Part shown: positions 178 through 62,638 of the stretch, piece by piece
Numbering within the stretch: position 1 is the first letter of the stretch
Layout of the letters: the number at the start of each line of letters is the position of its first letter
IMG/VR virus record: IMGVR_UViG_3300042090_001530
Coordinates: 32,001-96,000 of that record
From: a virus
Taxonomy: Duplodnaviria > Caudoviricetes
Length of the DNA stretch: 64,000 nucleotides
Strand: one strand, 5' to 3'
The notes under the pieces: generated by a model
Told to the model about the DNA's origin: nothing
The model's database searches: none
What the model saw: only the letters and a program-made list of their open reading frames with translations
Translations under genes and position numbers: made by a program

Positions 178-3100
178 GTGGTATCGCGCGAACTCGCCCT
201 CCCCGAACCCGCGGCCGTAACCCGGCAGCGAGCCAGGGCGGTACGCGCACAAGCCGCCGCCTCACCGCGCGCCCGAGTCGCCAAAGTCTGGGGCACCGCA
301 GTACCCACTGCGGTCCAGGCCGGTGAAGCCGCGTCGCAGATGACCCCGGCGAGCCCGTTCGCACCGGGCGAGCCGGTCAGCCCCTATGACGGATTCAGCC
401 GTACCCCGCGCACATTCGACTACATCCCGCAGTACAACGTCGCCACCCGGCCGCGCACCCACGAGCGCGTAGCGTTCAGCACCCTGCGCGGGCTGATCGA
501 GTCCTATGACATCGCCCAAGTCGCGATCTGGCACCGGATCGACTCGATCCGCTCCCTCGAATGGTCGCTGGTCGCAGACGACGGCTACCAGGGCGATGTA
601 ACGGGTGCGGTCGCGCTCGGCATGGCCGCCCTGAAGAAGCCGGACAGGAAAAACCCTTTCGACGCGTGGCTCGCCGAGTTCCTCTTCGACGTGCTCGCAT
701 TCGACGCTGGCGCCCTGTACCGGATGCGCAACCGCGCCGGACAGGTCATCGGCCTCAAGCCGGTAGACGGCACGATCCTGGCGCCGCTCCTTGACTACTG
801 GGGCGACCCGCCGGAGCCGCCCGCCCCGGCCTACGTGCAGTACGCCAACGGGCTGCCGTGGAACTGGCTGACGGCCGACGACCTGATCTACCAGCCCTTC
901 CGGAAGATCACCAACTCGCCGTACGGCCGCGCGCCCCTCGAGTCGATCCTGCTCAACGCGAACACCGACTTGAGGTTCCAGGCCTACTTCCTGCAGCGGT
1001 ACACCGAAGGCAACCTGCCCGCCGCGTTCGCGTCCGCACCGGAGACCTGGACCCCGCAGCAGATCGAATCGTTCCAGGAGTACTGGGACGGGTTCATCCT
1101 CGGCGACCAGTCGTTCAAGAACCAGATCCGGTGGATCCCGCCCGGAAGCAAGATCGAATGGTCGAACGAGAAAGACTTCACCGACGCGTTCTCGCTGTTC
1201 ATGATGCGAAAGACCCTAGCGGCCTACCACGTGGTGCCCGCAGACCTGGGCTTCACGGAAAGCGTCAACAAGTCGGCAGGGGAGACGCAGACCGACGTTC
1301 AGCATCGCATCGGCGACGCGCCCCTCGCTAAGCACGTCTCCAGCATCCTCACCGGATTCCTGCAAGACGACCTACGCCTTCCCCTCAAGCACCAGTTCGA
1401 CTTCGGCGAGGAGCAGGACGACCGTCTCGCCACTGCGCAGGCCGACCAGGTGTACATCCAGAACGCCGTCGTCTCCCCGTCCGAGATCCGCGAACTGCGG
1501 TTCGGCCTCGGCGAGCCCGACGGGCGCCCCGTGCCGCGTTACATCTTCTCCTCGCGTGGCGGCGCAGTGCCGCTGGCCCCGCTGTTCGCGGTCGCCGGCC
1601 CCATCGACCCCGCATCCGGCGCGCCTCTCCCTGGCGCGCCGCTACCGAAGAAGCCCTTCAGTCCCATCGAGGGGGTTGAACCGAACCCGGCCCCGCCGAC
1701 GAAGCCGCTCGCGGTGCAAATCTACGGGGACCTGAATCCGCCCACGCCCAATCCGGTGGTCGGTGTCGCCCCGGCGCCGCACGCTGTGATGCCTGGCGCA
1801 GCCGCGCCTCAGGCCGCCGCAACGCCCGTCGCCAAGGACGGCGCGGCAGCCCCGGCGGCTGGGTCCGGCTCGACCGCCGGGATCACCGCCGCGACCGGCA
1901 TCTACTCGTATGACCTAGGCACCGAGCCCGTCATCATGCCCGACGCCGACGACATCGACTACGAAGTCGCCAAGTCGGAACTCGCCACCTACCGGCGGTA
2001 CGTCAAGGCACGCAAGCGCAGCGGACGCTGGAAAGACTTCGAGTTCGCGGCCATCGACCGCGTCACCGCGCACCGGCTCAACGACGCCGGACGCTTGGAG
2101 ATCCGGAAGGCTGGCGGCGTCATCGCGTGCGCCGGCCTCGCAGTCCTCGCCGAGGACACCGGCCGCGTCCTCATGCTCCAGCGCGGGCTCGACCCGAACG
2201 ACCCCGCCTCCGGGACCTTTGAATTTCCTGGCGGGCACGTCGAGGACGGAGAAACCCCGCTCGCGGCTGCCGAGCGCGAATTCCAAGAGGAAACAGGGCT
2301 CCTCCTCTCGGCCGACGCACTGACCAACGCCAACCCCGACGCAACCTGGACCAGCGCCGACCGCGTCTACCGCGGGTTCGTCGTCACCATCCCCGTCGAA
2401 GCGGCGCTGCCGATCGCGGAACGCGGCCAGGTCGCCAATCCCGACGACCCGGACGCTGACGCAGTCGAAATGATCGCCTGGTGGGATCCGAGATTGTTGC
2501 CGGCCAACCCGGCGGTGCGCCCGGAACTGCTCGCGTCCATGGACGACGTACAGCGGGCGATCGCGATCGCGCAACCGTGCGACACGGTCCCTGCAGAGGT
2601 CGCGGCTCCCGTAGAGAAGGCCGCGCCGATGCTCGGGGAAGTGCCGGGGCTCACCAAGCGCTCCGGCATGATCTCGCTGGACCTCCCGGCAGGTCTCATC
2701 CCCGTCGTGCCCGGAGGCTTGAACGATCACCATGTGACCGTGGTCTATCTCGGGAAAGACCTCGACGATGAGGACTTTGCCGCAGCCTGCGACCGTGCCG
2801 AAACCGCCGCGACGGCCATGGCCGGACCGCTCACCGGCAGCATCAGCGGCCGAGGAGTGTTCCCGCCCTCAGCGTCCAGCGACGGGAAGATCCCCGTGTT
2901 CGCCGAGGTCGAACTGCCCGGCATCAGCGCGCTCCACGCGGAACTCGAAGACCTGTCCGCGTCCGAGCACGCCAGCTATCACGCGCACGTCACCCGCACG
3001 TACGCCGAGCCCGGCGACCAACTGCCGGACCCGCTCCCGTATACGCCGGTGACTTTCACGCACCTCACGGTCCATCGCGGCGACGAGCAGATGAGCTTCC

Positions 3101-3996
3101 CGTTCGGGCAGCGCGGACTCGGCGTGATGAAGGCCAGCGGCGGTGAACCCGACGGCCCAAAAGCTGACGCCTCCGCCAAGGAGGCGTCCAAGGCGTGGCC
3201 CGGCTGGGAACACGACCTCCAAGCCGCCCGGCACTGGGCCGACAGACTCAACAACGGATACACCAACGCATTAAGCCGGACGCACGCCGAACGCATCGCA
3301 GCCTCGTTCATCGCCGCACACCCGCAACCGAAAACCGAGAAGAAGCCGACCAAAGCCGAGACCGCGGCGGTAGCGGCAGCACTCCTCGCCGCCGCGCTCG
3401 CACACCTCGAAAACCAAGGCCTCGACCTCACCAGCCATGCCACCGAGAACCTGCGCGGTATCTACGCCGACGGCTACTTGATCGGCGCCGCATCCGGCAA
3501 CGCGGTCATCGACGGCGGCGCGCCCGCGCTCGGTAACTGGGCGCCCGGCAAAACCGCCGACGCGCACCACCTCATCGAAACCCTCGCGCTCGGCGCCGGG
3601 CTCTCCGCGCTCCTGCTACGAGCACCCGAAGTAGCAGCGGAGATGTCGAACACGCGCATGACCGCCATGGCCACAGCGCTCGCCGCCGGCGCGGCATCCG
3701 GATCGGGGCCGGCCGTCATCGCCGGAACCCTAGTCGCGGTCCTCGCCGCGGGCTGGCGATCCCTCAGATCCGCGATCACCGGAATCACCACCGGATCCAG
3801 CGCCGGAGCGAGCGACACCTACCAGAAGCGCGGCGTCGAACTCGGCCAATGGCTGCTGGACCCCAGCAGCAAGAGCTGTCCGAACTGCATCGCCAACGCC
3901 AACGCCAAGCCGCGCCCACTCGGGCAGCCGTGGCCCAGCGGCAGCGCATATCCGCCAGAGCATGATCACTGTCGGTGCGAAATCGGCCCTGCGTAA
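178..3996 (+). CDS. Portal protein fused to Nudix hydrolase, 2H phosphoesterase and Mu gpF-like head morphogenesis domains
   Basis: 1272 aa. Portal-like N-half (LKPVDGTI, YVQYANG, DLIY...SPYGRAPLE). Nudix box GGHVEDGETPLAAAEREFQEETG. Two HxT motifs (HHVTVVYLG, HAHVTRTY). C-terminal CPNC...YPPEHDHCRC. Confidence 0.85.
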   Translation: MVSRELALPEPAAVTRQRARAVRAQAAASPRARVAKVWGTAVPTAVQAGEAASQMTPASPFAPGEPVSPYDGFSRTPRTFDYIPQYNVATRPRTHERVAFSTLRGLIESYDIAQVAIWHRIDSIRSLEWSLVADDGYQGDVTGAVALGMAALKKPDRKNPFDAWLAEFLFDVLAFDAGALYRMRNRAGQVIGLKPVDGTILAPLLDYWGDPPEPPAPAYVQYANGLPWNWLTADDLIYQPFRKITNSPYGRAPLESILLNANTDLRFQAYFLQRYTEGNLPAAFASAPETWTPQQIESFQEYWDGFILGDQSFKNQIRWIPPGSKIEWSNEKDFTDAFSLFMMRKTLAAYHVVPADLGFTESVNKSAGETQTDVQHRIGDAPLAKHVSSILTGFLQDDLRLPLKHQFDFGEEQDDRLATAQADQVYIQNAVVSPSEIRELRFGLGEPDGRPVPRYIFSSRGGAVPLAPLFAVAGPIDPASGAPLPGAPLPKKPFSPIEGVEPNPAPPTKPLAVQIYGDLNPPTPNPVVGVAPAPHAVMPGAAAPQAAATPVAKDGAAAPAAGSGSTAGITAATGIYSYDLGTEPVIMPDADDIDYEVAKSELATYRRYVKARKRSGRWKDFEFAAIDRVTAHRLNDAGRLEIRKAGGVIACAGLAVLAEDTGRVLMLQRGLDPNDPASGTFEFPGGHVEDGETPLAAAEREFQEETGLLLSADALTNANPDATWTSADRVYRGFVVTIPVEAALPIAERGQVANPDDPDADAVEMIAWWDPRLLPANPAVRPELLASMDDVQRAIAIAQPCDTVPAEVAAPVEKAAPMLGEVPGLTKRSGMISLDLPAGLIPVVPGGLNDHHVTVVYLGKDLDDEDFAAACDRAETAATAMAGPLTGSISGRGVFPPSASSDGKIPVFAEVELPGISALHAELEDLSASEHASYHAHVTRTYAEPGDQLPDPLPYTPVTFTHLTVHRGDEQMSFPFGQRGLGVMKASGGEPDGPKADASAKEASKAWPGWEHDLQAARHWADRLNNGYTNALSRTHAERIAASFIAAHPQPKTEKKPTKAETAAVAAALLAAALAHLENQGLDLTSHATENLRGIYADGYLIGAASGNAVIDGGAPALGNWAPGKTADAHHLIETLALGAGLSALLLRAPEVAAEMSNTRMTAMATALAAGAASGSGPAVIAGTLVAVLAAGWRSLRSAITGITTGSSAGASDTYQKRGVELGQWLLDPSSKSCPNCIANANAKPRPLGQPWPSGSAYPPEHDHCRCEIGPA

Positions 3997-38680: not shown

Positions 38681-39315
38681 CTGTCACCGAAACCCGCCCC
38701 GCCCCCGTCGTCCCGCTGCACGGCGGACGGCGCCGCGTGCGGGCCACGCCGGTCAGCGACCTGCACGGTCGGCAACTTGCCGCGTCGAATCGACTGCTGG
38801 ACGCTGCGGCGGACCTGGCGGACACGACTGCTGAGGATGTTCTCGGTCGCCTGCTCGGCGGCCTGGTCAATGCGGCGCCGTCGGGCGGCCGTGCGCCGTC
38901 GAAGCATGCCTTGGTGGAGCTCTTGGAGCGGATCGCTGATGGGCTCGGCTGCCCGCCCGCGCCTGTCCCCGTGTGGTCCACGGGCGCGATCACCGTGGAG
39001 CGGTGGCCGTCCGGGAAGTCCGTCGTGACCGGGCTGCTCGCGAATCCAGACGTGGTCGAAGCACTCGCTGAGGCGTTCACCCAGGCGGATGCCGACGGCG
39101 TCGACCTAGTGCGCCTGTTCGCGCAGATAGCCGAGTTCGGGCAGGCGCGGTTGGACATGCCGGTGGGTTCGCTCGAGGATCAGGCGTACGTTGCGGCGTT
39201 CAACGAGGTGACTGAACTCCTCGGTTCGACGCCGGTCCGTTTCGAGCCGCACGATCTGGTTCCGATCGCCGAGGCTGTCGAGGCCGAGAACGACCGCGGG
39301 CTGGTGACCGCGTGA
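38677..39315 (+). CDS. Hypothetical protein
   Basis: ATGA overlap with both neighbours. Confidence 0.55.
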   Translation: MTVTETRPAPVVPLHGGRRRVRATPVSDLHGRQLAASNRLLDAAADLADTTAEDVLGRLLGGLVNAAPSGGRAPSKHALVELLERIADGLGCPPAPVPVWSTGAITVERWPSGKSVVTGLLANPDVVEALAEAFTQADADGVDLVRLFAQIAEFGQARLDMPVGSLEDQAYVAAFNEVTELLGSTPVRFEPHDLVPIAEAVEAENDRGLVTA

Positions 39316-40238
39316 CCGTCACCGACGACCGCCCTGCCACGGACTTGGCTGCCGCGACCCTCACCGCGTACGGCGAGCATGCCGTTGAGATCACCGAGCC
39401 GGGGATCTTCGACCATCTGACGCTCGAGCAGTATCACGCAGACATGGTGCCGGGCGGTTCGCTCTCCTCGTCGGGCGCGCGCAAACTGCTGTACCCGTCG
39501 TGCCCAGCCAAGTTCGACTGGGAGCGGCGCCACCCGAAGCCGCCGACCAGCGCGATGGAGTTCGGTTCCGCAGTGCACTCCATCGCACTGGGCAACGGCG
39601 CGGAGGTCGTGCCGGTGGATGCGAAGTCGTGGGTGGGCGGCGCGGCACAGCAGGAGCGCAAGGAGATCCGCGCGTCGGGGCGCATCCCGCTGCTCGACGT
39701 CGAGTTTCAGACGGCGAACGAGATGTGCGCCGCGCTGCGCAGGGATCCGCTGGCCGCGAAGCTGCTCGACCCGTCGTGTGGCAAGGCGGAGCGCAGCCTG
39801 TTTTGGCGGGACGAGAAGACCGGCGTGATGCTGCGCGCCCGCCCGGACTGGCTGCCGGAGCCCGTCGAGGGTGAGCGGCTGATCGTGCCTGACATCAAGA
39901 CGACGACCGAGGTGGACGGGGACTCTATCTCCAAGGCGTTGGAGACGTACTCGTACCCGATGCAGGCCGACTTCTACGAGTCCGGCATCAGGGCGCTCGG
40001 GATCGCGCAGGATGTCGTGTTCCTGTTCATCTTCGTCCGGAAGACCCGGCCGCATCTGATCCGGGTCGTCGGGGTCCCGGAGATCGACCGGACGATCGCG
40101 GCGGCGAAGAACCGGCGCGCCATCGACCTGTACGCGCAGTGCACCGCCTCCGGCGAGTGGCCCGCCTACGAGCCCGGCATCACCTACATCGATATTCCCG
40201 GCTGGGCACAGTCGCGTGATGCGCAGGACTACCTGTGA
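39312..40238 (+). CDS. RecE/ExoVIII-like PD-(D/E)XK exonuclease
   Basis: LSSSGAR, FGSAVH, RARPDWL, PDIKTT, YPMQADFY. Confidence 0.85.
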   Translation: MTVTDDRPATDLAAATLTAYGEHAVEITEPGIFDHLTLEQYHADMVPGGSLSSSGARKLLYPSCPAKFDWERRHPKPPTSAMEFGSAVHSIALGNGAEVVPVDAKSWVGGAAQQERKEIRASGRIPLLDVEFQTANEMCAALRRDPLAAKLLDPSCGKAERSLFWRDEKTGVMLRARPDWLPEPVEGERLIVPDIKTTTEVDGDSISKALETYSYPMQADFYESGIRALGIAQDVVFLFIFVRKTRPHLIRVVGVPEIDRTIAAAKNRRAIDLYAQCTASGEWPAYEPGITYIDIPGWAQSRDAQDYL

Positions 40239-50165: not shown

Positions 50166-50612
50166 ATGACCACGAACGACGTACTCCTCCCGACCGCCGA
50201 CCCGGCCAAGGCGCTCCTCGCCGAACTCACCGGGCCCGCCACAATCGAGCAGTTGCTCGGGCGGGCCGAGCGCAACGGCACCAAGCGGGCCCGGCTCGTC
50301 GCTGCAAGGATCCGGCACGACGCCGATCTCCTCGAGCAGCTGCTCGCGCAGCATGGCGAAGAGGCCGTGGCGCGCCGGAAGGTCGACCGGCTGCGCGCCC
50401 AGCTCAAGGCGGCCGAAGCCGAACTGCGCGCGAAGACCGACCCGGAGCGCAACATCGCCCGACTCGCCGGCCCCAACCAGCCGGCACCGGCCGCGACCAC
50501 CAAGGTCATGCGCGCCTGGCTGATCGAGCAGGGGCACGAAGTCTCGGACCGCCGGCGCCTGACCGCCGCACAGATCGGGCAGTACGAGGCCGCGCACCGG
50601 GGCGCCGAATGA
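50166..50612 (+). CDS. Protein with C-terminal Lsr2-like DNA-binding domain
   Basis: KVMRAWLIEQGHEVSDRRRLTAAQIGQYEAAH resembles the Lsr2 C-domain. Confidence 0.75.
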   Translation: MTTNDVLLPTADPAKALLAELTGPATIEQLLGRAERNGTKRARLVAARIRHDADLLEQLLAQHGEEAVARRKVDRLRAQLKAAEAELRAKTDPERNIARLAGPNQPAPAATTKVMRAWLIEQGHEVSDRRRLTAAQIGQYEAAHRGAE

Positions 50613-51184
50613 CCACCACCTTCGATCCCGGCGACGGCCGCGACTACCTCGCCGAGATGAGCGCGCTCATCGATGGCGCGCTGCCCGACGGCGAATACAT
50701 CGCGCCCCTCGTCGCGCACGACCTGATCGAGAAGCTCAGGGCCAACGACGGCGAGCTCCTCGCCGGATGGCTCAACATGCGGGCCGAGGTCACTATGACC
50801 GCCTACATCTCGGATCGGATCAAGAACCGTCGCCAGTCGAGTCGGGAGTCTGCCGCCCGGTCCACGTTCGGCGAGGCTGCTGAGCGGTTCGCGGTGGGCG
50901 GCGACGGTGCCACGATGCGCGCCGCAGTACTGACGCGGCCGTTCGATGCCGAGTACGTCGTGAACTGTGAACTGCTGCGACGCAGGGTTGCGGAGATGAC
51001 TGGAGCCGACCACATCTTCGTCGCCAAGGAGTACGCCGAGACGAAGCAGACGGCGAGGCTCCTGGAGTCCTTCCATCGCGCGGTCGCCAAGAAAGTCGGC
51101 GACCAGAAGACGAAGGACGTTTTCACCGAGGGCCAGTACGTCGAGATGTACCGGTCGATCACCCGCCGCGAGTTGGCGGTCTAA
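50609..51184 (+). CDS. Hypothetical protein immediately upstream of the pentamer array
   Basis: 191 aa, ATGA coupled; its stop is 7 nt before the array. Confidence 0.7.
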   Translation: MTTTFDPGDGRDYLAEMSALIDGALPDGEYIAPLVAHDLIEKLRANDGELLAGWLNMRAEVTMTAYISDRIKNRRQSSRESAARSTFGEAAERFAVGGDGATMRAAVLTRPFDAEYVVNCELLRRRVAEMTGADHIFVAKEYAETKQTARLLESFHRAVAKKVGDQKTKDVFTEGQYVEMYRSITRRELAV

Positions 51185-51190
51185 GCGCGC

Positions 51191-51745
51191 ATGACAACCC
51201 TCACCGAATCACTTCAGCGCGCCGACTACCCGAGCCATCTCCTTGCCAACGCTGTCCTTCCCTTGCCGACGACCCATTTCTACGCAGTGCAGCCCCACGC
51301 AGTGCCATCCGACCCCCGTCGACGAGTCGCCCCTGGCCGACATGTCTCCGCCCAGCGCTGCCCCTACCGACTGCCCAGCGCATCGCGTCCCGTGCCATTT
51401 CGGCTCGTCCTGCTCCTGCCCCGCGCGCACCGACTTCCCAGCCCCGCGCGCCTCGTCGCACTCCAGCCCGCATCGACCACCCGGCCCACCTCACCGTGTC
51501 GCGCCCTGCCCCCTTCCATTCCCTGCCGACAACCCAACTCCCATCGCGCATGCCGTCCCGCCGCCTACCGACTACTCAGCCCACCGAGGCTCACGTCACC
51601 CCTCTTCGACTACACAAGCCCGCACCGCACTCCCCGAACCCTCGCGACTACCCATCCCGGCCCCGAACGTGCCTTCGCACCCCCACCTGGCCCTCGCTGA
51701 CTACCCAGCCCCCGACAGGCCGACAACTCCACATCCCTCACCACG
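51191..51745. repeat. Non-coding array of ~13 NNGAC-NACCC-anchored units with a 5-nt NN/C-rich lattice (candidate guide-RNA array)
   Basis: Anchors at 51191, 51222, 51266, 51309, 51337, 51367, 51430, 51473, 51526, 51568, 51606, 51644, 51697; most spacings are 5n+3. Confidence 0.85.
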
Positions 51746-51767
51746 TGACGAACCGAAAGGCTCTGAC

Positions 51768-52442
51768 ATGACCTCCGTCTTCGCCAAGCACATCCCCCAG
51801 GCGTGGCCCCACCGCTACAGCGGCACGCTGCACATCGTCACCCTCGCGGGCGGCACTCCCAGCGACCCCAATGTCGCCGAAGGCTGGCTCCGCACGAAGC
51901 TCGCCGACAAGAACGACCTCATCCGCGACGCTGTCGCCGAGGTCATGGTTGAGCGCGGCATCACCGCAGAGGAAGCCGCGAAGGAACTCGACCGGCTCAA
52001 GCACTTGAACGGCTTCAAGAAGGACCCTGAGCGTGGCGGAGAGCTCTACATCGAAGGCCGGCAACTCAAAGCCGGAATTAAGGAGGCGGCGTCCGTCGCG
52101 CGCGCGGTTGGGAAGCTCCCGGACCGCTGGGGCCTGACGAAGAAGGGCATCGTCAACTTCGTTGCCGAGCACATCCAGGTCGTTGAAGACCGGCTGCACC
52201 TCGGAGTCACCGAACCCAGCGACGTGCTTCAGTCCTTCCCAAAGAACGCGCGCACCGGGCAAACCGGAATCCAATACACCGAGATCATCCTGGACGCGAA
52301 GCTCGACTTCACGATCATCAGCGACTACAAGTTCAGCGACGACGAGTGGGCGATGCTCTGGCTCACGGCTGAGCAGCAGGGCATCGGCGCGTCCCGCTCG
52401 CAGGGCTTCGGTCGATACGAGGTCGTCAGGTGGGATTCGTGA
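51768..52442 (+). CDS. Stand-alone Cas7/RAMP-like protein
   Basis: 224 aa, GAAAGG RBS. N-terminal strand TLHIVTLAGG, ELYIEGRQLKAGIKEAA helix motif, terminal Gly-rich loop GIGASRSQGFGRYEV. Confidence 0.8.
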   Translation: MTSVFAKHIPQAWPHRYSGTLHIVTLAGGTPSDPNVAEGWLRTKLADKNDLIRDAVAEVMVERGITAEEAAKELDRLKHLNGFKKDPERGGELYIEGRQLKAGIKEAASVARAVGKLPDRWGLTKKGIVNFVAEHIQVVEDRLHLGVTEPSDVLQSFPKNARTGQTGIQYTEIILDAKLDFTIISDYKFSDDEWAMLWLTAEQQGIGASRSQGFGRYEVVRWDS

Positions 52443-52948
52443 CCACCCCGCAGGGCGCGGAGAGGCGCCCGGGGGGCCTAGGCGTCCCCGCCCGCGTCCG
52501 CCTCTCGCGCACCAAAGGCTTCCGGCTCCAGCAGTACGCGCCCGGCGCCATCGTCGTGCGTCGCCCCACGCGTTGGGGCAACCCGTTCACGGTTGCCGAC
52601 GCGCTCGCCGACGACCCGGCACTCACGGCGGCCCAGGCGCGGCAACGCTGCGCCGAGTTCTTCGACTTGTGGCTCGACGGGGAGATCGAACTCAGCGACC
52701 CGGCACTGGCCGAGCGCCGAGCCTGGATCCTCGAGCACATCCAGGAACTCGAAGGTCACCCGCTCGCCTGCACATGCCCCGAGGCCGTGCCAGGCGAGCC
52801 TGACTGGTGCCATGCCGTCAGCCTGATCCGCCGAAGCAACCCGCCGCAGCCGGTCGGCGAGTGCGGTGACGGCCTGTTCGCGGCCCCCGTCCGGCTGCGG
52901 CACGTCGTGCCCGTGAAGCTGCGGCGGGACGGGGCGGCGCGCCTATGA
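52439..52948 (+). CDS. DUF4326-like protein
   Basis: VRRPTRWGNPF...LEGHPLACTC...CHAVSL. Confidence 0.8.
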   Translation: MTTPQGAERRPGGLGVPARVRLSRTKGFRLQQYAPGAIVVRRPTRWGNPFTVADALADDPALTAAQARQRCAEFFDLWLDGEIELSDPALAERRAWILEHIQELEGHPLACTCPEAVPGEPDWCHAVSLIRRSNPPQPVGECGDGLFAAPVRLRHVVPVKLRRDGAARL

Positions 52949-60950: not shown

Positions 60951-61532
60951 TTGGCAACTCCCACGACGACCACACGCCGCAAGCCGCAGCAGCGCGGCTG
61001 GCTCGTCCGTGTAGATCCGGACCTCTGGATCGACCGCCGCTTCGCGCGGTTCTGCGACCGCGAAGCGCGCTTCGGCTACATCAACAGCCTCTTCGTCCTG
61101 GCCGTGACCGACGGACCTATGGGCATCTACCCGCACGTCGCCCTTGAGGCTGAGTTCGACGCCAGTGCCGAGCACGTTGCGGCGCAGCTTACCGATTTCG
61201 GCCTCTGGACGCCCAGCGGCGTCGGGTACCGCGTCACGCCGCACCGCTGCTGCTACATCGTCGCCGACGGCCGCCAGCCGCTCCCGAAGTGGCTCCGCGC
61301 CGCAGTCATGGAGCGTGACGGCTACCGGTGCGTGAAGTGCAGTGCCGCGGGACCGCTCGCTATTGATCACATCTTTCCGTGGTCCAGGGGTGGCGAGGAC
61401 ACGCTCGACAACCTGCAGGTGCTCTGCAAGCCCTGCAACAGCAAGAAGAGCGCGACGGTCCCGTCGCACCTCATCCAGGTTCCGCGTAACGCCGTTACTA
61501 ACGCCGCGACTAACAAGACGGGTGGTGCGTGA
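60951..61532 (+). CDS. HNH endonuclease
   Basis: RDGYRCVKC...IDHIFPWSRGG...NLQVLCKPCNSKK; start (TTG 60951 after AGGA) is uncertain. Confidence 0.8.
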   Translation: MATPTTTTRRKPQQRGWLVRVDPDLWIDRRFARFCDREARFGYINSLFVLAVTDGPMGIYPHVALEAEFDASAEHVAAQLTDFGLWTPSGVGYRVTPHRCCYIVADGRQPLPKWLRAAVMERDGYRCVKCSAAGPLAIDHIFPWSRGGEDTLDNLQVLCKPCNSKKSATVPSHLIQVPRNAVTNAATNKTGGA

Positions 61533-62638
61533 TGCCTTTCTTCCACGTGGATGACGGCTTCCACGGCCACAAGAAGCTCGCGCGACTCGGAATCGAGGAC
61601 TTCCACGCCATCGCGCTCTGGACGGTCGCGGGGAGCTGGAGCTCCGACAACTTGGAAGACGGGTTCGTCCCCGACTACATCGCCGCGCGCATGCACCCGG
61701 ACTACAAGGAGTTCGCCAACGCGCTCGTCCGGGTCGGCCTCTGGGAAGTCGCCGAGAAGGGCGGCGAAGCCGGCTGGCAGTTCCACGACTGGACCGGCCC
61801 CGGCCGGAACCCCAGTGCCGAGCAGGTACACAAGGAGCGTGCGGCCAATGCCGAGCGTCAGCGGGAGTTCCGTTCGCGAGTAAAGGGCACGAAGCCGAAG
61901 GGTGAGGAGCCGCCGGAGCCGCCAGAACCCCAGGGCTGGGCGCCGCCGGATCCTCCGATGAATGACGGTGGCAGTAACGGCGTTACTGAGCCGTTAGTCA
62001 CGGACGGAGTGCGCGACCCCGTTCCGTTCCGTTCCGTTCCGTTCCGCTCCAACGAAGAAAACCCTTTTTCGTCGCCAACGGCTTCGCCGCCAGACGACGC
62101 CAACCTCGCAGCGGTCATTCCGCTCTTCCCCATGGACGAGCCCGCCGAGCCTGCGGCGGAACAGCCGACCGAGAAGAAGGCCAAGCCGAAGGCTGGCCGC
62201 AAGAAGATCTCTGACGCGCCGCGTCCGGACGTCGATGCTCTCTGCAACCGTCTCGTCGAACTCATGATCGCCAACGAGTGCAAGCCGCCCACGATCACCC
62301 AGGCCTGGCGAGACGAGACGCGCCGCATGCTCGACATCGACGGCCGCGACTTCAACAAGGCCATGGGCCTCCTCGAGTGGTCCCAGAAGCACTGGTTCTG
62401 GAAGCCCAACATCCACTCGATGAAGAAGTTCCGCGAAAAGTACGACCAGATGCGCCAGCAGGCAAACGCGGAATGGGAACGCGGCACGATCCCAGGCCAG
62501 CGCGCCAATTCGGATCTCGGGGGCGCCGCGCACATGGAGCGTTTCCGCACCCGGCAGGCCGAGCTTGCCGACGCTGGCACGACCGACCCCACCCAGCAGC
62601 CCGCCTTGGAGGTGTTCCCGTGGGACCGAACGAGCTAG
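61532..62638 (+). CDS. Replication initiator protein
   Basis: FHVDDGFHGHKK...LWTVAGSWS...DGFVP N-domain; W...NIHSMKKFREKYDQM C-domain; upstream of loader and dnaB. Confidence 0.8.
   Translation: MPFFHVDDGFHGHKKLARLGIEDFHAIALWTVAGSWSSDNLEDGFVPDYIAARMHPDYKEFANALVRVGLWEVAEKGGEAGWQFHDWTGPGRNPSAEQVHKERAANAERQREFRSRVKGTKPKGEEPPEPPEPQGWAPPDPPMNDGGSNGVTEPLVTDGVRDPVPFRSVPFRSNEENPFSSPTASPPDDANLAAVIPLFPMDEPAEPAAEQPTEKKAKPKAGRKKISDAPRPDVDALCNRLVELMIANECKPPTITQAWRDETRRMLDIDGRDFNKAMGLLEWSQKHWFWKPNIHSMKKFREKYDQMRQQANAEWERGTIPGQRANSDLGGAAHMERFRTRQAELADAGTTDPTQQPALEVFPWDRTS
62019..62048 (+). repeat. (CCGTT)5-CCGCT pentamer run inside the initiator gene
   Basis: Directly visible tandem repeat. Confidence 0.85.

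What the first reader, a model, noticed from the sequence alone, without database searches (positions are those of the whole stretch)
51191..52442. Candidate non-CRISPR RNA-guided system: pentamer-lattice array plus solo Cas7/RAMP-like gene
Seen: a ~550 bp non-coding array with strict 5-nt phasing ends about 25 nt before the RBS of a lone 224-aa RAMP-like gene, in the phage early operon. No cas1/2/3/5/6/8/10 and no CRISPR repeat-spacer array is visible in the window. Established: Cas7-family RAMPs polymerise on RNA with a fixed nucleotide step per subunit. Inference: each pentamer binds one subunit through the constant C-rich triplet, and the variable dinucleotides form a gapped code for a target (rival phages, host promoters or self). 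From memory this matches the recently described phage VIPR systems (Cas7-like protein with GGY/NN RNAs), which I cannot verify here. The gene-sense strand here is C-rich rather than GGY, so it may be a divergent subtype or transcribed antisense.
Basis: partly seen in the sequence, partly recalled or inferred. Interest (0 to 1): 0.96.

Follow-up and report, generated by a model that had tools for sequence, protein, structure and literature searches.

The report
Phage VIPR guide-RNA system, C-rich array
This actinobacterial phage carries a VIPR system, a CRISPR-like RNA-guided DNA silencer first described in 2026, so the kind is known; the open point is that its five-base guide repeats are C-rich on the gene's own strand rather than the published GGY.

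Summary
The 224-aa protein (51768-52442) has a RAMP fold. Its five best matches among AlphaFold clusters include all five UniProt entries that the VIPR discovery paper names as founding Vipr proteins. The 51191-51754 tract is non-coding and 49% C. It consists of about 12 units, each a 3-nt GAC punctuation followed by 7-12 pentamers of the form NN-c-c-C.

About 60 related loci carry the same module: a conserved 191-aa partner gene (50609-51184), then the array, then vipr. The array interior cannot be aligned between close relatives.

This is therefore a new member of a known kind (VIPR; bioRxiv 10.64898/2026.04.26.720920, .720927 and 2026.10.15.759431). This scan has already met VIPR systems in at least 80 other genomes.

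The transcribed strand is unsettled. Every array is C-rich on the vipr sense strand, and the arrays are wedged between the partner gene's stop codon and the vipr ribosome-binding site. I therefore favour a sense, C-rich guide (ccC/NN) at about 60%, against an antisense G-rich guide at about 35%. I found no RNA data and no natural target.

In passing: the same 202-kb phage record also carries cas1, a cas12-like gene and a CRISPR array, 95 kb from this locus.

The parts
50609..51184 (+). Conserved 191-aa partner gene, a candidate vap (vipr-accessory protein). It is helical and belongs to no known family.
   Evidence: Found on the same strand upstream of vipr in 43 related loci. No Pfam, PHROG or NCBIfam hit. 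AF2 model pLDDT 85.7, with no fold match in the PDB or AFDB clusters. Not similar to SUSP1 vap1.
51191..51754 (+). Guide-RNA (vrRNA) array: about 12 units, each GAC plus 7-12 pentamers NN-c-c-C. It is C-rich on the + strand.
   Evidence: In 826 pentamers from relatives, information per position is 0.02, 0.03, 0.31, 0.64 and 1.64 bits, with C at 95% in position 5.
51193..51223 (+). Leader unit. The first anchor (AT)GACAACCC starts 8 nt after the partner gene's stop codon. This part is conserved with relative L019.
51224..51267 (+). Unit 1 (44 nt), anchor GACTACCC; contains one 1-nt irregularity.
51268..51320 (+). Unit 2 (53 nt = 5n+3), 10 pentamers.
51321..51368 (+). Unit 3 (48 nt = 5n+3), 9 pentamers.
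51369..51431 (+). Unit 4 (63 nt = 5n+3), 12 pentamers.
51432..51474 (+). Unit 5 (43 nt = 5n+3), 8 pentamers, anchor GACTTCCC.
51475..51527 (+). Unit 6 (53 nt), irregular inside.
51528..51569 (+). Unit 7 (42 nt), with one 4-nt step inside.
51570..51607 (+). Unit 8 (38 nt = 5n+3), 7 pentamers.
51608..51645 (+). Unit 9 (38 nt = 5n+3), 7 pentamers.
51646..51698 (+). Unit 10 (53 nt = 5n+3), anchor GACTACCC.
51699..51754 (+). Short last units (GAC at 51699 and 51722) and the decaying end of the lattice.
51755..51760 (+). Ribosome-binding site GAAAGG of vipr.
   Evidence: In relatives the last anchor often abuts this site.
51768..52442 (+). vipr: a 224-aa stand-alone RAMP protein with the G-loop QQGIGASRSQGFGRY.

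Best explanation
This is a phage VIPR system with three parts: a partner gene (50609-51184), an array of about 12 guide-RNA units (51191-51754), and the Vipr RAMP protein gene (51768-52442).

Most likely mechanism: the three are transcribed together on the + strand. The C-rich array RNA is cut at or near each GAC-T(A/T)-CCC anchor into guides of about 38-63 nt. One Vipr protomer binds each pentamer and holds the constant c-c-C triplet. The free dinucleotides are left exposed and together read a gapped sequence in double-stranded DNA, silencing a rival phage or other mobile element.

Shown here: the RAMP fold, kinship with the founding Vipr proteins, the unit anatomy, the conserved synteny, and the hypervariability of the array.

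Inferred by homology: transcription, processing, filament assembly, the one-base-skip reading rule, and silencing.

I put identity as a VIPR system at about 0.9. The confidence given for this field also includes the sense-strand (C-rich RNA) reading.
For: Fold: Foldseek against the PDB returns only CRISPR RAMPs in its top 50 (Csm3, type VII Cas7, gRAMP; E 4e-7 to 3e-5). VIA-align ranks 1-28 are all CRISPR RAMPs, at Z 6.1-9.0.

Kinship: AFDB-cluster ranks 1, 2, 3, 5 and 6 are A0A1F4YLN4, A0A2D6XG06, X1U2U4, A0A0F9A1L0 and A0A661D0E2. These are exactly the five founding Vipr entries in the paper's methods.

G-loop: it is invariant in the family.

Array in relatives: period-5 arrays lie next to vipr in 11 of 11 genome loci, in the Microcystis phage Mae-JY09, and in most of 47 IMG/VR loci. 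Of 253 anchor-to-anchor spacings, 121 are 5n+3 and 57 are 5n+4.

Hypervariability: the flanks are 78-84% identical to L019 and L002, but the array interior cannot be aligned.

Sense strand:
- C exceeds G in 41 of 41 intergenic regions between the partner gene and vipr, and every downstream array found is also C-rich on the vipr strand.
- The first anchor overlaps the partner gene's stop codon in 10 loci and lies within 15 nt of it in 25. The last anchor abuts the vipr ribosome-binding site.
- The experimentally shown vrRNAs of SUSP1 lie on the vipr strand.
- In L043 the array is followed by + strand tRNA genes.
- In L018 and L016 a hairpin plus T-run follows the array on the + strand. In L016 a promoter-like site precedes it.
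- In a weak profile alignment, the SUSP1 residue that contacts Y3 (R179) is kept as R210. The residues that contact G1 and G2 (D177, W178, R138) are A208, S209 and Y170 here. On the + strand the invariant base is a pyrimidine directly 5' of NN, as Y3 is in SUSP1.
Against: No RNA data exist for this phage, so the strand, the processing and the protein binding are untested.

All vrRNAs studied experimentally have fixed G's. The alternative motifs in the discovery paper (NNNGG, YNNNG, NNNNG) are also G-based. The minus strand here reads NN-G-g-g, which fits that series.

In the antisense reading the constant anchor would sit at the 3' end, like the published tail.

The residue argument rests on an hhalign match of E = 0.021.

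No natural target was found, so the reading rule is unverified for this clade.
Confidence: 0.55

Rival explanations
1. Same VIPR system, but the guides are transcribed from the minus strand, antisense to vipr. They would be G-rich RNAs of NN-G-g-g pentamers ending in a short 3' tail GGG(A/T)AGUC. This would make them a degenerate form of the published GGY/NN or NNNNG repeats.
For: All characterised vrRNAs, and the discovery paper's alternative motifs, have fixed G's. The minus strand has an invariant G directly 3' of NN, where G1 sits in SUSP1. The constant part would be 3'-terminal, like the published tail.
Against: The promoter would have to lie inside vipr and the terminator inside the partner gene. 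The array fills the gap from stop codon to ribosome-binding site. The orientation is the same whether the array is upstream or downstream of vipr, which gives antisense transcription no consistent logic. SUSP1 vrRNAs are sense. The residue that contacts G1 in SUSP1, D177, aligns with alanine here. Position 3 of the triplet would be G-biased rather than a pyrimidine.
Confidence: 0.33
2. The tract is translated. It would be either a low-complexity Pro/Ala-rich protein (ORF 51191-51700) or an N-terminal extension of the RAMP protein (ORF 51243-52442, in frame).
For: Both ORFs are open. The C-rich sequence has few stop codons.
Against: The tract has period 5 and no period-3 signal. It cannot be aligned between relatives whose flanking genes are about 80% identical. 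The N-termini of homologues align at 51768, which is preceded by a ribosome-binding site. The 169-aa ORF has no family hit.
Confidence: 0.02
3. The protein is an orphan Cas7 left over from a decayed CRISPR-Cas system, or it serves the CRISPR locus elsewhere in this phage. The C-rich tract would then be an unrelated DNA-level element such as protein-binding sites.
For: The same 202-kb record has cas1, a cas12-like gene and a CRISPR array. The fold matches Cas7 and Csm3.
Against: That locus lies 95 kb away and is of the Cas12 type, which uses no RAMP proteins (established knowledge). The gene, array and partner-gene module recurs in about 60 loci with no cas genes beside it. The closest structures are Vipr proteins rather than Cas7.
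Confidence: 0.03

Closest known systems
VIPR systems (Vipr protein, vap and vrRNA): bioRxiv 10.64898/2026.04.26.720920, 10.64898/2026.04.26.720927 and 10.64898/2026.10.15.759431. The type II exemplar is Escherichia phage SUSP1.
   Same: A stand-alone minimal RAMP protein encoded by a phage. A two-gene locus with no cas genes beside it. An adjacent non-coding array of 5-nt repeats with a constant triplet and a hypervariable dinucleotide, 7-12 repeats per unit (published range 9-16). The array is co-oriented with vipr, as in SUSP1.
   Different: The triplet is c-c-C on the sense strand, or G-g-g on the antisense strand, rather than GGY. Units abut each other, separated only by a constant anchor of about 8 nt (GAC-TW-CCC) instead of a structured 3' tail. 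This resembles the paper's 'staggered arrays', whose figure I could not see. The partner gene is unrelated to SUSP1 vap1. The array lies between the two genes. The SUSP1 residues that contact G1 and G2 are not kept.
Non-canonical VIPR arrays in the COMPASS preprint (bioRxiv 10.64898/2026.10.21.760802): 21 clusters with fixed triplets such as GAC/NN, CAC/NN, WGT/NN and TGH/NN.
   Same: Period-5 arrays with a non-GGY constant triplet lie next to a protein with a Vipr-like fold. The strand was assigned from the neighbouring genes, as I do here.
   Different: The main text names no C-only triplet ('CCC' occurs 0 times). The figure that lists all motifs is not held, so I cannot tell whether this clade is among the 21.
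Class 1 CRISPR backbone proteins (Cas7, Csm3, Cmr4, type VII Cas7).
   Same: The RRM/RAMP fold, G-loop and thumb. One subunit is expected per fixed step of guide RNA.
   Different: There are no cas5, cas6, cas8, cas10 or cas3 genes and no CRISPR repeat-spacer array beside it. The step is 5 nt rather than 6 nt. The sequence is not detected by any Cas Pfam model.

Membership tests
VIPR | Vipr protein: a minimal RAMP fold with RRM core, glycine-rich loop and thumb | tested here: met
   AF2 model pLDDT 79.7. Foldseek and VIA-align top hits are all CRISPR RAMPs. The C-terminal G-loop is invariant.
VIPR | Kinship with published Vipr proteins rather than with Cas5, Cas6 or Cas7 | tested here: met
   AFDB-cluster ranks 1, 2, 3, 5 and 6 are the five founding Vipr UniProt entries. 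Sequence-level hhalign against SUSP1 Vipr is only weak (E 0.021).
VIPR | Minimal locus with no adjacent cas genes or CRISPR array, on a virus or provirus | tested here: met
   No CRISPR-like repeats in the window. Phage structural genes are present. 47 relatives lie on IMG/VR contigs. A separate cas1/cas12-like locus lies 95 kb away.
VIPR | Adjacent tandem 5-nt repeats with a constant triplet alternating with a hypervariable NN | tested here: met
   for the repeat pattern. for hypervariability between relatives.
VIPR | Constant triplet is GGY (canonical consensus) on the transcribed strand | tested here: not met
   The sense strand reads c-c-C and the antisense strand G-g-g, with position 3 not a pyrimidine. 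The papers allow 'a related consensus' and non-canonical triplets, so this does not exclude membership.
VIPR | Accessory vap gene beside vipr | tested here: inconclusive
   A conserved 191-aa neighbour occurs in 43 loci. It has no similarity to SUSP1 vap1 and no recognisable DNA-binding or nuclease fold. Sequences of vap2-6 were not available.
VIPR | Repeat tract capped by an invariable structured 3' tail | tested here: inconclusive
   Only a constant anchor of about 8 nt lies between units. No Rfam hit. This may correspond to the published staggered arrays.
VIPR | vrRNAs are expressed and co-purify with Vipr | not testable with these tools
   No RNA run was listed for this DNA.
VIPR | Targets are read by the one-base-skip rule (NNx) in rival mobile elements, with no self-targets | tested here: inconclusive
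   No self-target in the 202-kb record, as in the paper. No significant target was found elsewhere.
CRISPR-Cas class 1 (Cas7 backbone) | Adjacent CRISPR repeat-spacer array and partner cas genes (cas5, cas6, cas8 or cas10) | tested here: not met
   The neighbours are a protein of unknown family and a DUF4326 protein.

The most novel reading that the evidence does not exclude
In this large clade of actinobacterial-phage VIPR systems the guide is the C-rich sense RNA. Its constant triplet is all-pyrimidine (c-c-C), and it carries an 8-nt 5' handle GACUWCCC. It would be processed out of the partner gene-array-vipr transcript. The Vipr G-loop would be re-tuned (D177/W178 of SUSP1 replaced by Ala/Ser) to hold cytosines instead of guanines. 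That would show that the sequestered triplet of the noncontiguous code can evolve freely and need not be G-based, and it would add a new accessory-protein family.
Probability: 0.5. Interest if true: 0.55.

Novelty: new member of a known kind. Interest (0 to 1): 0.38.

Why it matters
VIPR is a new, programmable, CRISPR-related way of reading DNA. So far it has been characterised only in Proteobacteria, with GGY/NN guides.

This locus belongs to a very large, unannotated actinobacterial-phage branch. It has 674 clusters at 50% identity, and every named homologue listed is 'hypothetical protein'. Its repeats are C-rich on the gene's strand.

If the C-rich strand is the guide, the protein-RNA recognition half of the code is plastic. 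That bears on how the system evolved and on how it could be engineered. If the guide is antisense, the clade has an unusual operon design. Either result is cheap to obtain by small-RNA sequencing of a cultured Streptomyces carrier.

As a discovery of a kind of system, however, it is already explained.

Tried and rejected
- Protein and RNA families. Pfam, PHROGs and NCBIfam gave nothing for Vipr or the partner protein. A PDB sequence search with the family profile gave nothing. Rfam gave no hit, hammerhead included.
- Promoters and terminators. The consensus scan of the window found none on either strand, which is uninformative in 69% GC DNA.
- RNA evidence. No RNA holder was listed in either search.
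- Self-targets. Seven window guides at skips of 0-3 against the 202-kb record gave only chance-level matches. The perfect hits at skip 3 are the array itself.
- Pooled guides. I searched 351 and then 244 guides from all loci against about 0.6 Mb of related phage DNA. Skip 1 first looked enriched (86 against 48 reversed controls at up to 2 mismatches). Against shuffled-order controls it was 86 against 71 +/- 8, which is not significant; the excess is codon periodicity.
- Exact one-skip patterns of units 4 and 2. There were 0 hits in viral contigs and 0 in metagenome contigs. Unit 4 with up to 2 mismatches gave 0 hits in 401 Streptomyces-genus genomes.
- A 20-base version of unit 4 in genome contigs. 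It hit 4 Anaerolineaceae MAGs, all the same conserved permease-like motif (SMVVIGVAWR) with the skip at the wobble position. Both flanking dinucleotides mismatch, and about one chance hit is expected in 1.2e12 positions. I treat this as chance.
- Complex prediction, Vipr with the partner protein. No verdict.
- Lag-5 signal at window 39200-39750. This is ordinary coding sequence.

Full report
**Observation.** The tract 51191-51767 is 49% C and 19% G, in a window that is 34.5% C and 34% G. It matches itself at lags 5, 10, 15 and 20 (0.40 at lag 5, against about 0.31 elsewhere). The period-5 statistic is 5.9 sd above 2000 Markov-1 shuffles and is the highest in the window. Local period-3 power is 0.70, against 1.6-1.7 in the two flanking genes. 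Tandem Repeats Finder reports nothing here, because only one to three positions of each pentamer are fixed.

A lattice parse shows that the phase is strict inside units. It is reset by a 3-nt GAC at 51193, 51224, 51268, 51321, 51369, 51432, 51475, 51528, 51570, 51608, 51646, 51699 and 51722. Nine of the 11 spacings from 51224 onward are 5n+3. Each unit reads GAC, then T(A/T)CCC, then 6-11 more pentamers of the form NN-c-c-C.

The lattice decays about 10-15 nt before the ribosome-binding site GAAAGG (51755-51760) of the 224-aa ORF 51768-52442.

**The protein.** It has no Pfam, PHROG or NCBIfam hit, yet it is not rare. There are 1384 clusters at 90% identity and 674 clusters at 50% identity with E below 0.001. 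They come mostly from Streptomyces-like Actinomycetes, soil and wetland metagenomes, and IMG/VR viral contigs. Every named homologue listed is 'hypothetical protein'.

The family has an invariant C-terminal glycine-rich loop, QQGIGASRSQGFGRY.

An AlphaFold2 model (pLDDT 79.7) finds only CRISPR RAMPs among its top 50 Foldseek hits in the PDB (E 4e-7 to 3e-5). By VIA-align, ranks 1-28 are all CRISPR RAMPs (Z 6.1-9.0).

The decisive result is against AlphaFold-DB clusters. Ranks 1, 2, 3, 5 and 6 are A0A1F4YLN4, A0A2D6XG06, X1U2U4, A0A0F9A1L0 and A0A661D0E2. The methods of the VIPR discovery paper name exactly these five entries as the founding Vipr proteins. The protein is therefore a Vipr.

**What VIPR is.**
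- A stand-alone RAMP protein of phages and proviruses, usually with one accessory gene (vap).
- Guide RNAs (vrRNAs) of 9-16 pentamers, in which a GGY triplet alternates with a hypervariable NN.
- One Vipr protomer binds per repeat and sequesters the triplet.
- The NN dinucleotides read double-stranded DNA, skipping every third base.
- The outcome is transcriptional silencing of rival phages and satellites.
- Seven types are described. Alternative repeats (NNNGG, YNNNG, NNNNG), staggered arrays and ribozyme-interspersed arrays are also reported.
- A later preprint reports 21 clusters with other fixed triplets: GAC, CAC, WGT and TGH.

**Comparative anatomy.** All 11 loci from genome contigs have a period-5 array next to vipr. 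So do the Microcystis phage Mae-JY09 (the only hit in the phage collection, 34% identity) and most of the 47 IMG/VR loci.

The anchor C-GAC-T(A/T)-CCC recurs in these arrays. Of 253 anchor-to-anchor spacings in non-duplicate loci, 121 are 5n+3 and 57 are 5n+4.

Over 826 pentamers, the information content per position is 0.02, 0.03, 0.31, 0.64 and 1.64 bits. That means two free positions, two C-biased positions (55% and 69% C) and one position that is 95% C.

Between the window and its closest relatives, L019 (Vipr 96% identical) and L002 (Vipr 90% identical), the flanking genes align at 78-84% nucleotide identity. The array interior does not align at all. That is the behaviour expected of guides.

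**The upstream gene.** The gene 50609-51184 (191 aa) is conserved on the same strand in 43 loci. The usual order is partner gene, array, vipr. In L012/L045 the order is array, partner gene, vipr. I regard it as the accessory gene of this clade. It is helical (pLDDT 85.7), has no detectable fold relative, and shows no similarity to SUSP1 vap1. The downstream DUF4326 gene is not conserved in these loci.

**Which strand is the guide?** In SUSP1 the YNNGG runs lie on the vipr strand. Here the vipr strand is C-rich. This holds in 41 of 41 partner gene-vipr intergenic regions and in every downstream array found.

The array fills the gap completely:
- The first anchor overlaps the partner gene's stop codon (tGACTACCC) in 10 loci.
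- It lies within 15 nt of that stop codon in 25 loci.
- The last anchor often touches the vipr ribosome-binding site.

An antisense unit would therefore need its promoter inside vipr and its terminator inside the partner gene.

In relatives with downstream arrays, other + strand features flank the array:
- tRNA genes follow the array in L043.
- A hairpin plus T-run follows it in L018 and L016.
- A promoter-like site with a perfect TATAAT precedes it in L016.

A weak profile alignment with SUSP1 Vipr (E 0.021, colinear over 120 columns) gives a consistent picture. The residue that holds the pyrimidine Y3 (R179) is kept as R210. The residues that read G1 and G2 (D177, W178, R138) correspond to A208, S209 and Y170. 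On the + strand the invariant base is a pyrimidine directly 5' of NN, which is where Y3 sits.

Three points argue the other way. Every vrRNA studied so far has fixed guanines. The minus strand reads NN-G-g-g. In that reading the constant anchor would be a 3' tail, as published.

I put the sense reading at about 60% and the antisense reading at about 35%. No RNA run was listed for this DNA.

**Targets.** There are no self-targets in the 202-kb record, as the paper reports for its own systems. Exact or near-exact one-skip patterns of the two longest window guides found nothing in IMG/VR, JGI metagenomes or 401 Streptomyces-genus genomes. One set of four homologous hits in Anaerolineaceae permease-like genes is at the chance level. 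A pooled test of 244 guides against related phage DNA showed no excess over shuffled-order controls. The reading rule and the targets of this clade therefore remain unverified.

**Context.** The window is phage DNA. It encodes portal, tape-measure and tail proteins, an exonuclease VIII-like protein, an Lsr2-like protein and DNA methyltransferases. It lies on a 202,490-bp IMG/VR-type virus record that CheckV estimates at 98% complete.

**Verdict.** The kind of system is already published (2026 preprints), and this scan has noted it in at least 80 other genomes. The locus is therefore a new member of a known kind. Its residual interest lies in the C-rich sense-strand array, the GAC-punctuated 5n+3 unit design, and an accessory protein of unknown fold.

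Noticed in passing
outside the window, same record: G000:C1:177900-181300 (L066:3913-7287): The same 202-kb phage record carries a compact CRISPR-Cas locus. It has 8 repeats of about 29 nt (AGATCTTCCCGTGCGCTCGCGGGCCAGAC) spaced 61 nt apart at L066:5001-5464. Next to the array are a Cas1 gene (PF01867, 55.5 bits) and a 596-aa Cas12f/TnpB-like gene (OrfB_IS605 plus Cas12f1-like TNB). One phage therefore has both VIPR and CRISPR.
   Followed up: partly
L018:1147-1480 (relative P0322) and L016:1483-1779 (relative P0296): More distant Vipr relatives in lower-GC DNA have downstream period-5 arrays with quite different constant positions. In L018 the pentamers are NNN-R-T, with the anchor TAAACGAT overlapping the vipr stop codon. 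The constant part of the pentamer clearly drifts within this branch.
   Followed up: partly
L043:3834-4714: In one IMG/VR relative the short array downstream of vipr runs straight into a cluster of five + strand tRNA genes (Lys, Arg, Ile, Val, Met). This suggests co-transcription, with tRNA-processing enzymes defining the ends of the guides.
   Followed up: partly
window 62020-62045: A perfect (GTTCC)x5 tandem pentamer run lies inside or next to ORF 61529-62638. It fits the NN-x-C-C shape, but it has identical units and no GAC anchor. Its relation to the VIPR array is unknown.
   Followed up: no
window 52430-52948: A DUF4326 gene (PHROG 464, unknown function) overlaps the vipr stop codon by 13 nt. 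It is not conserved next to vipr in the related loci compared.
   Followed up: partly
window 178-3996: A 1272-aa ORF combines a portal-protein region with NUDIX-hydrolase and RNA-ligase-like regions (PHROGs 2662, 1198, 2659). This is an unusually long fusion for a portal gene.
   Followed up: no
L033:3737-3790: In one relative a strong GC hairpin (GGGGGCGGG...CCCGCCCCC) lies between the vipr stop codon and a downstream C-rich array. In that locus the array may be a separate transcription unit, or it may be attached to the next gene.
   Followed up: no
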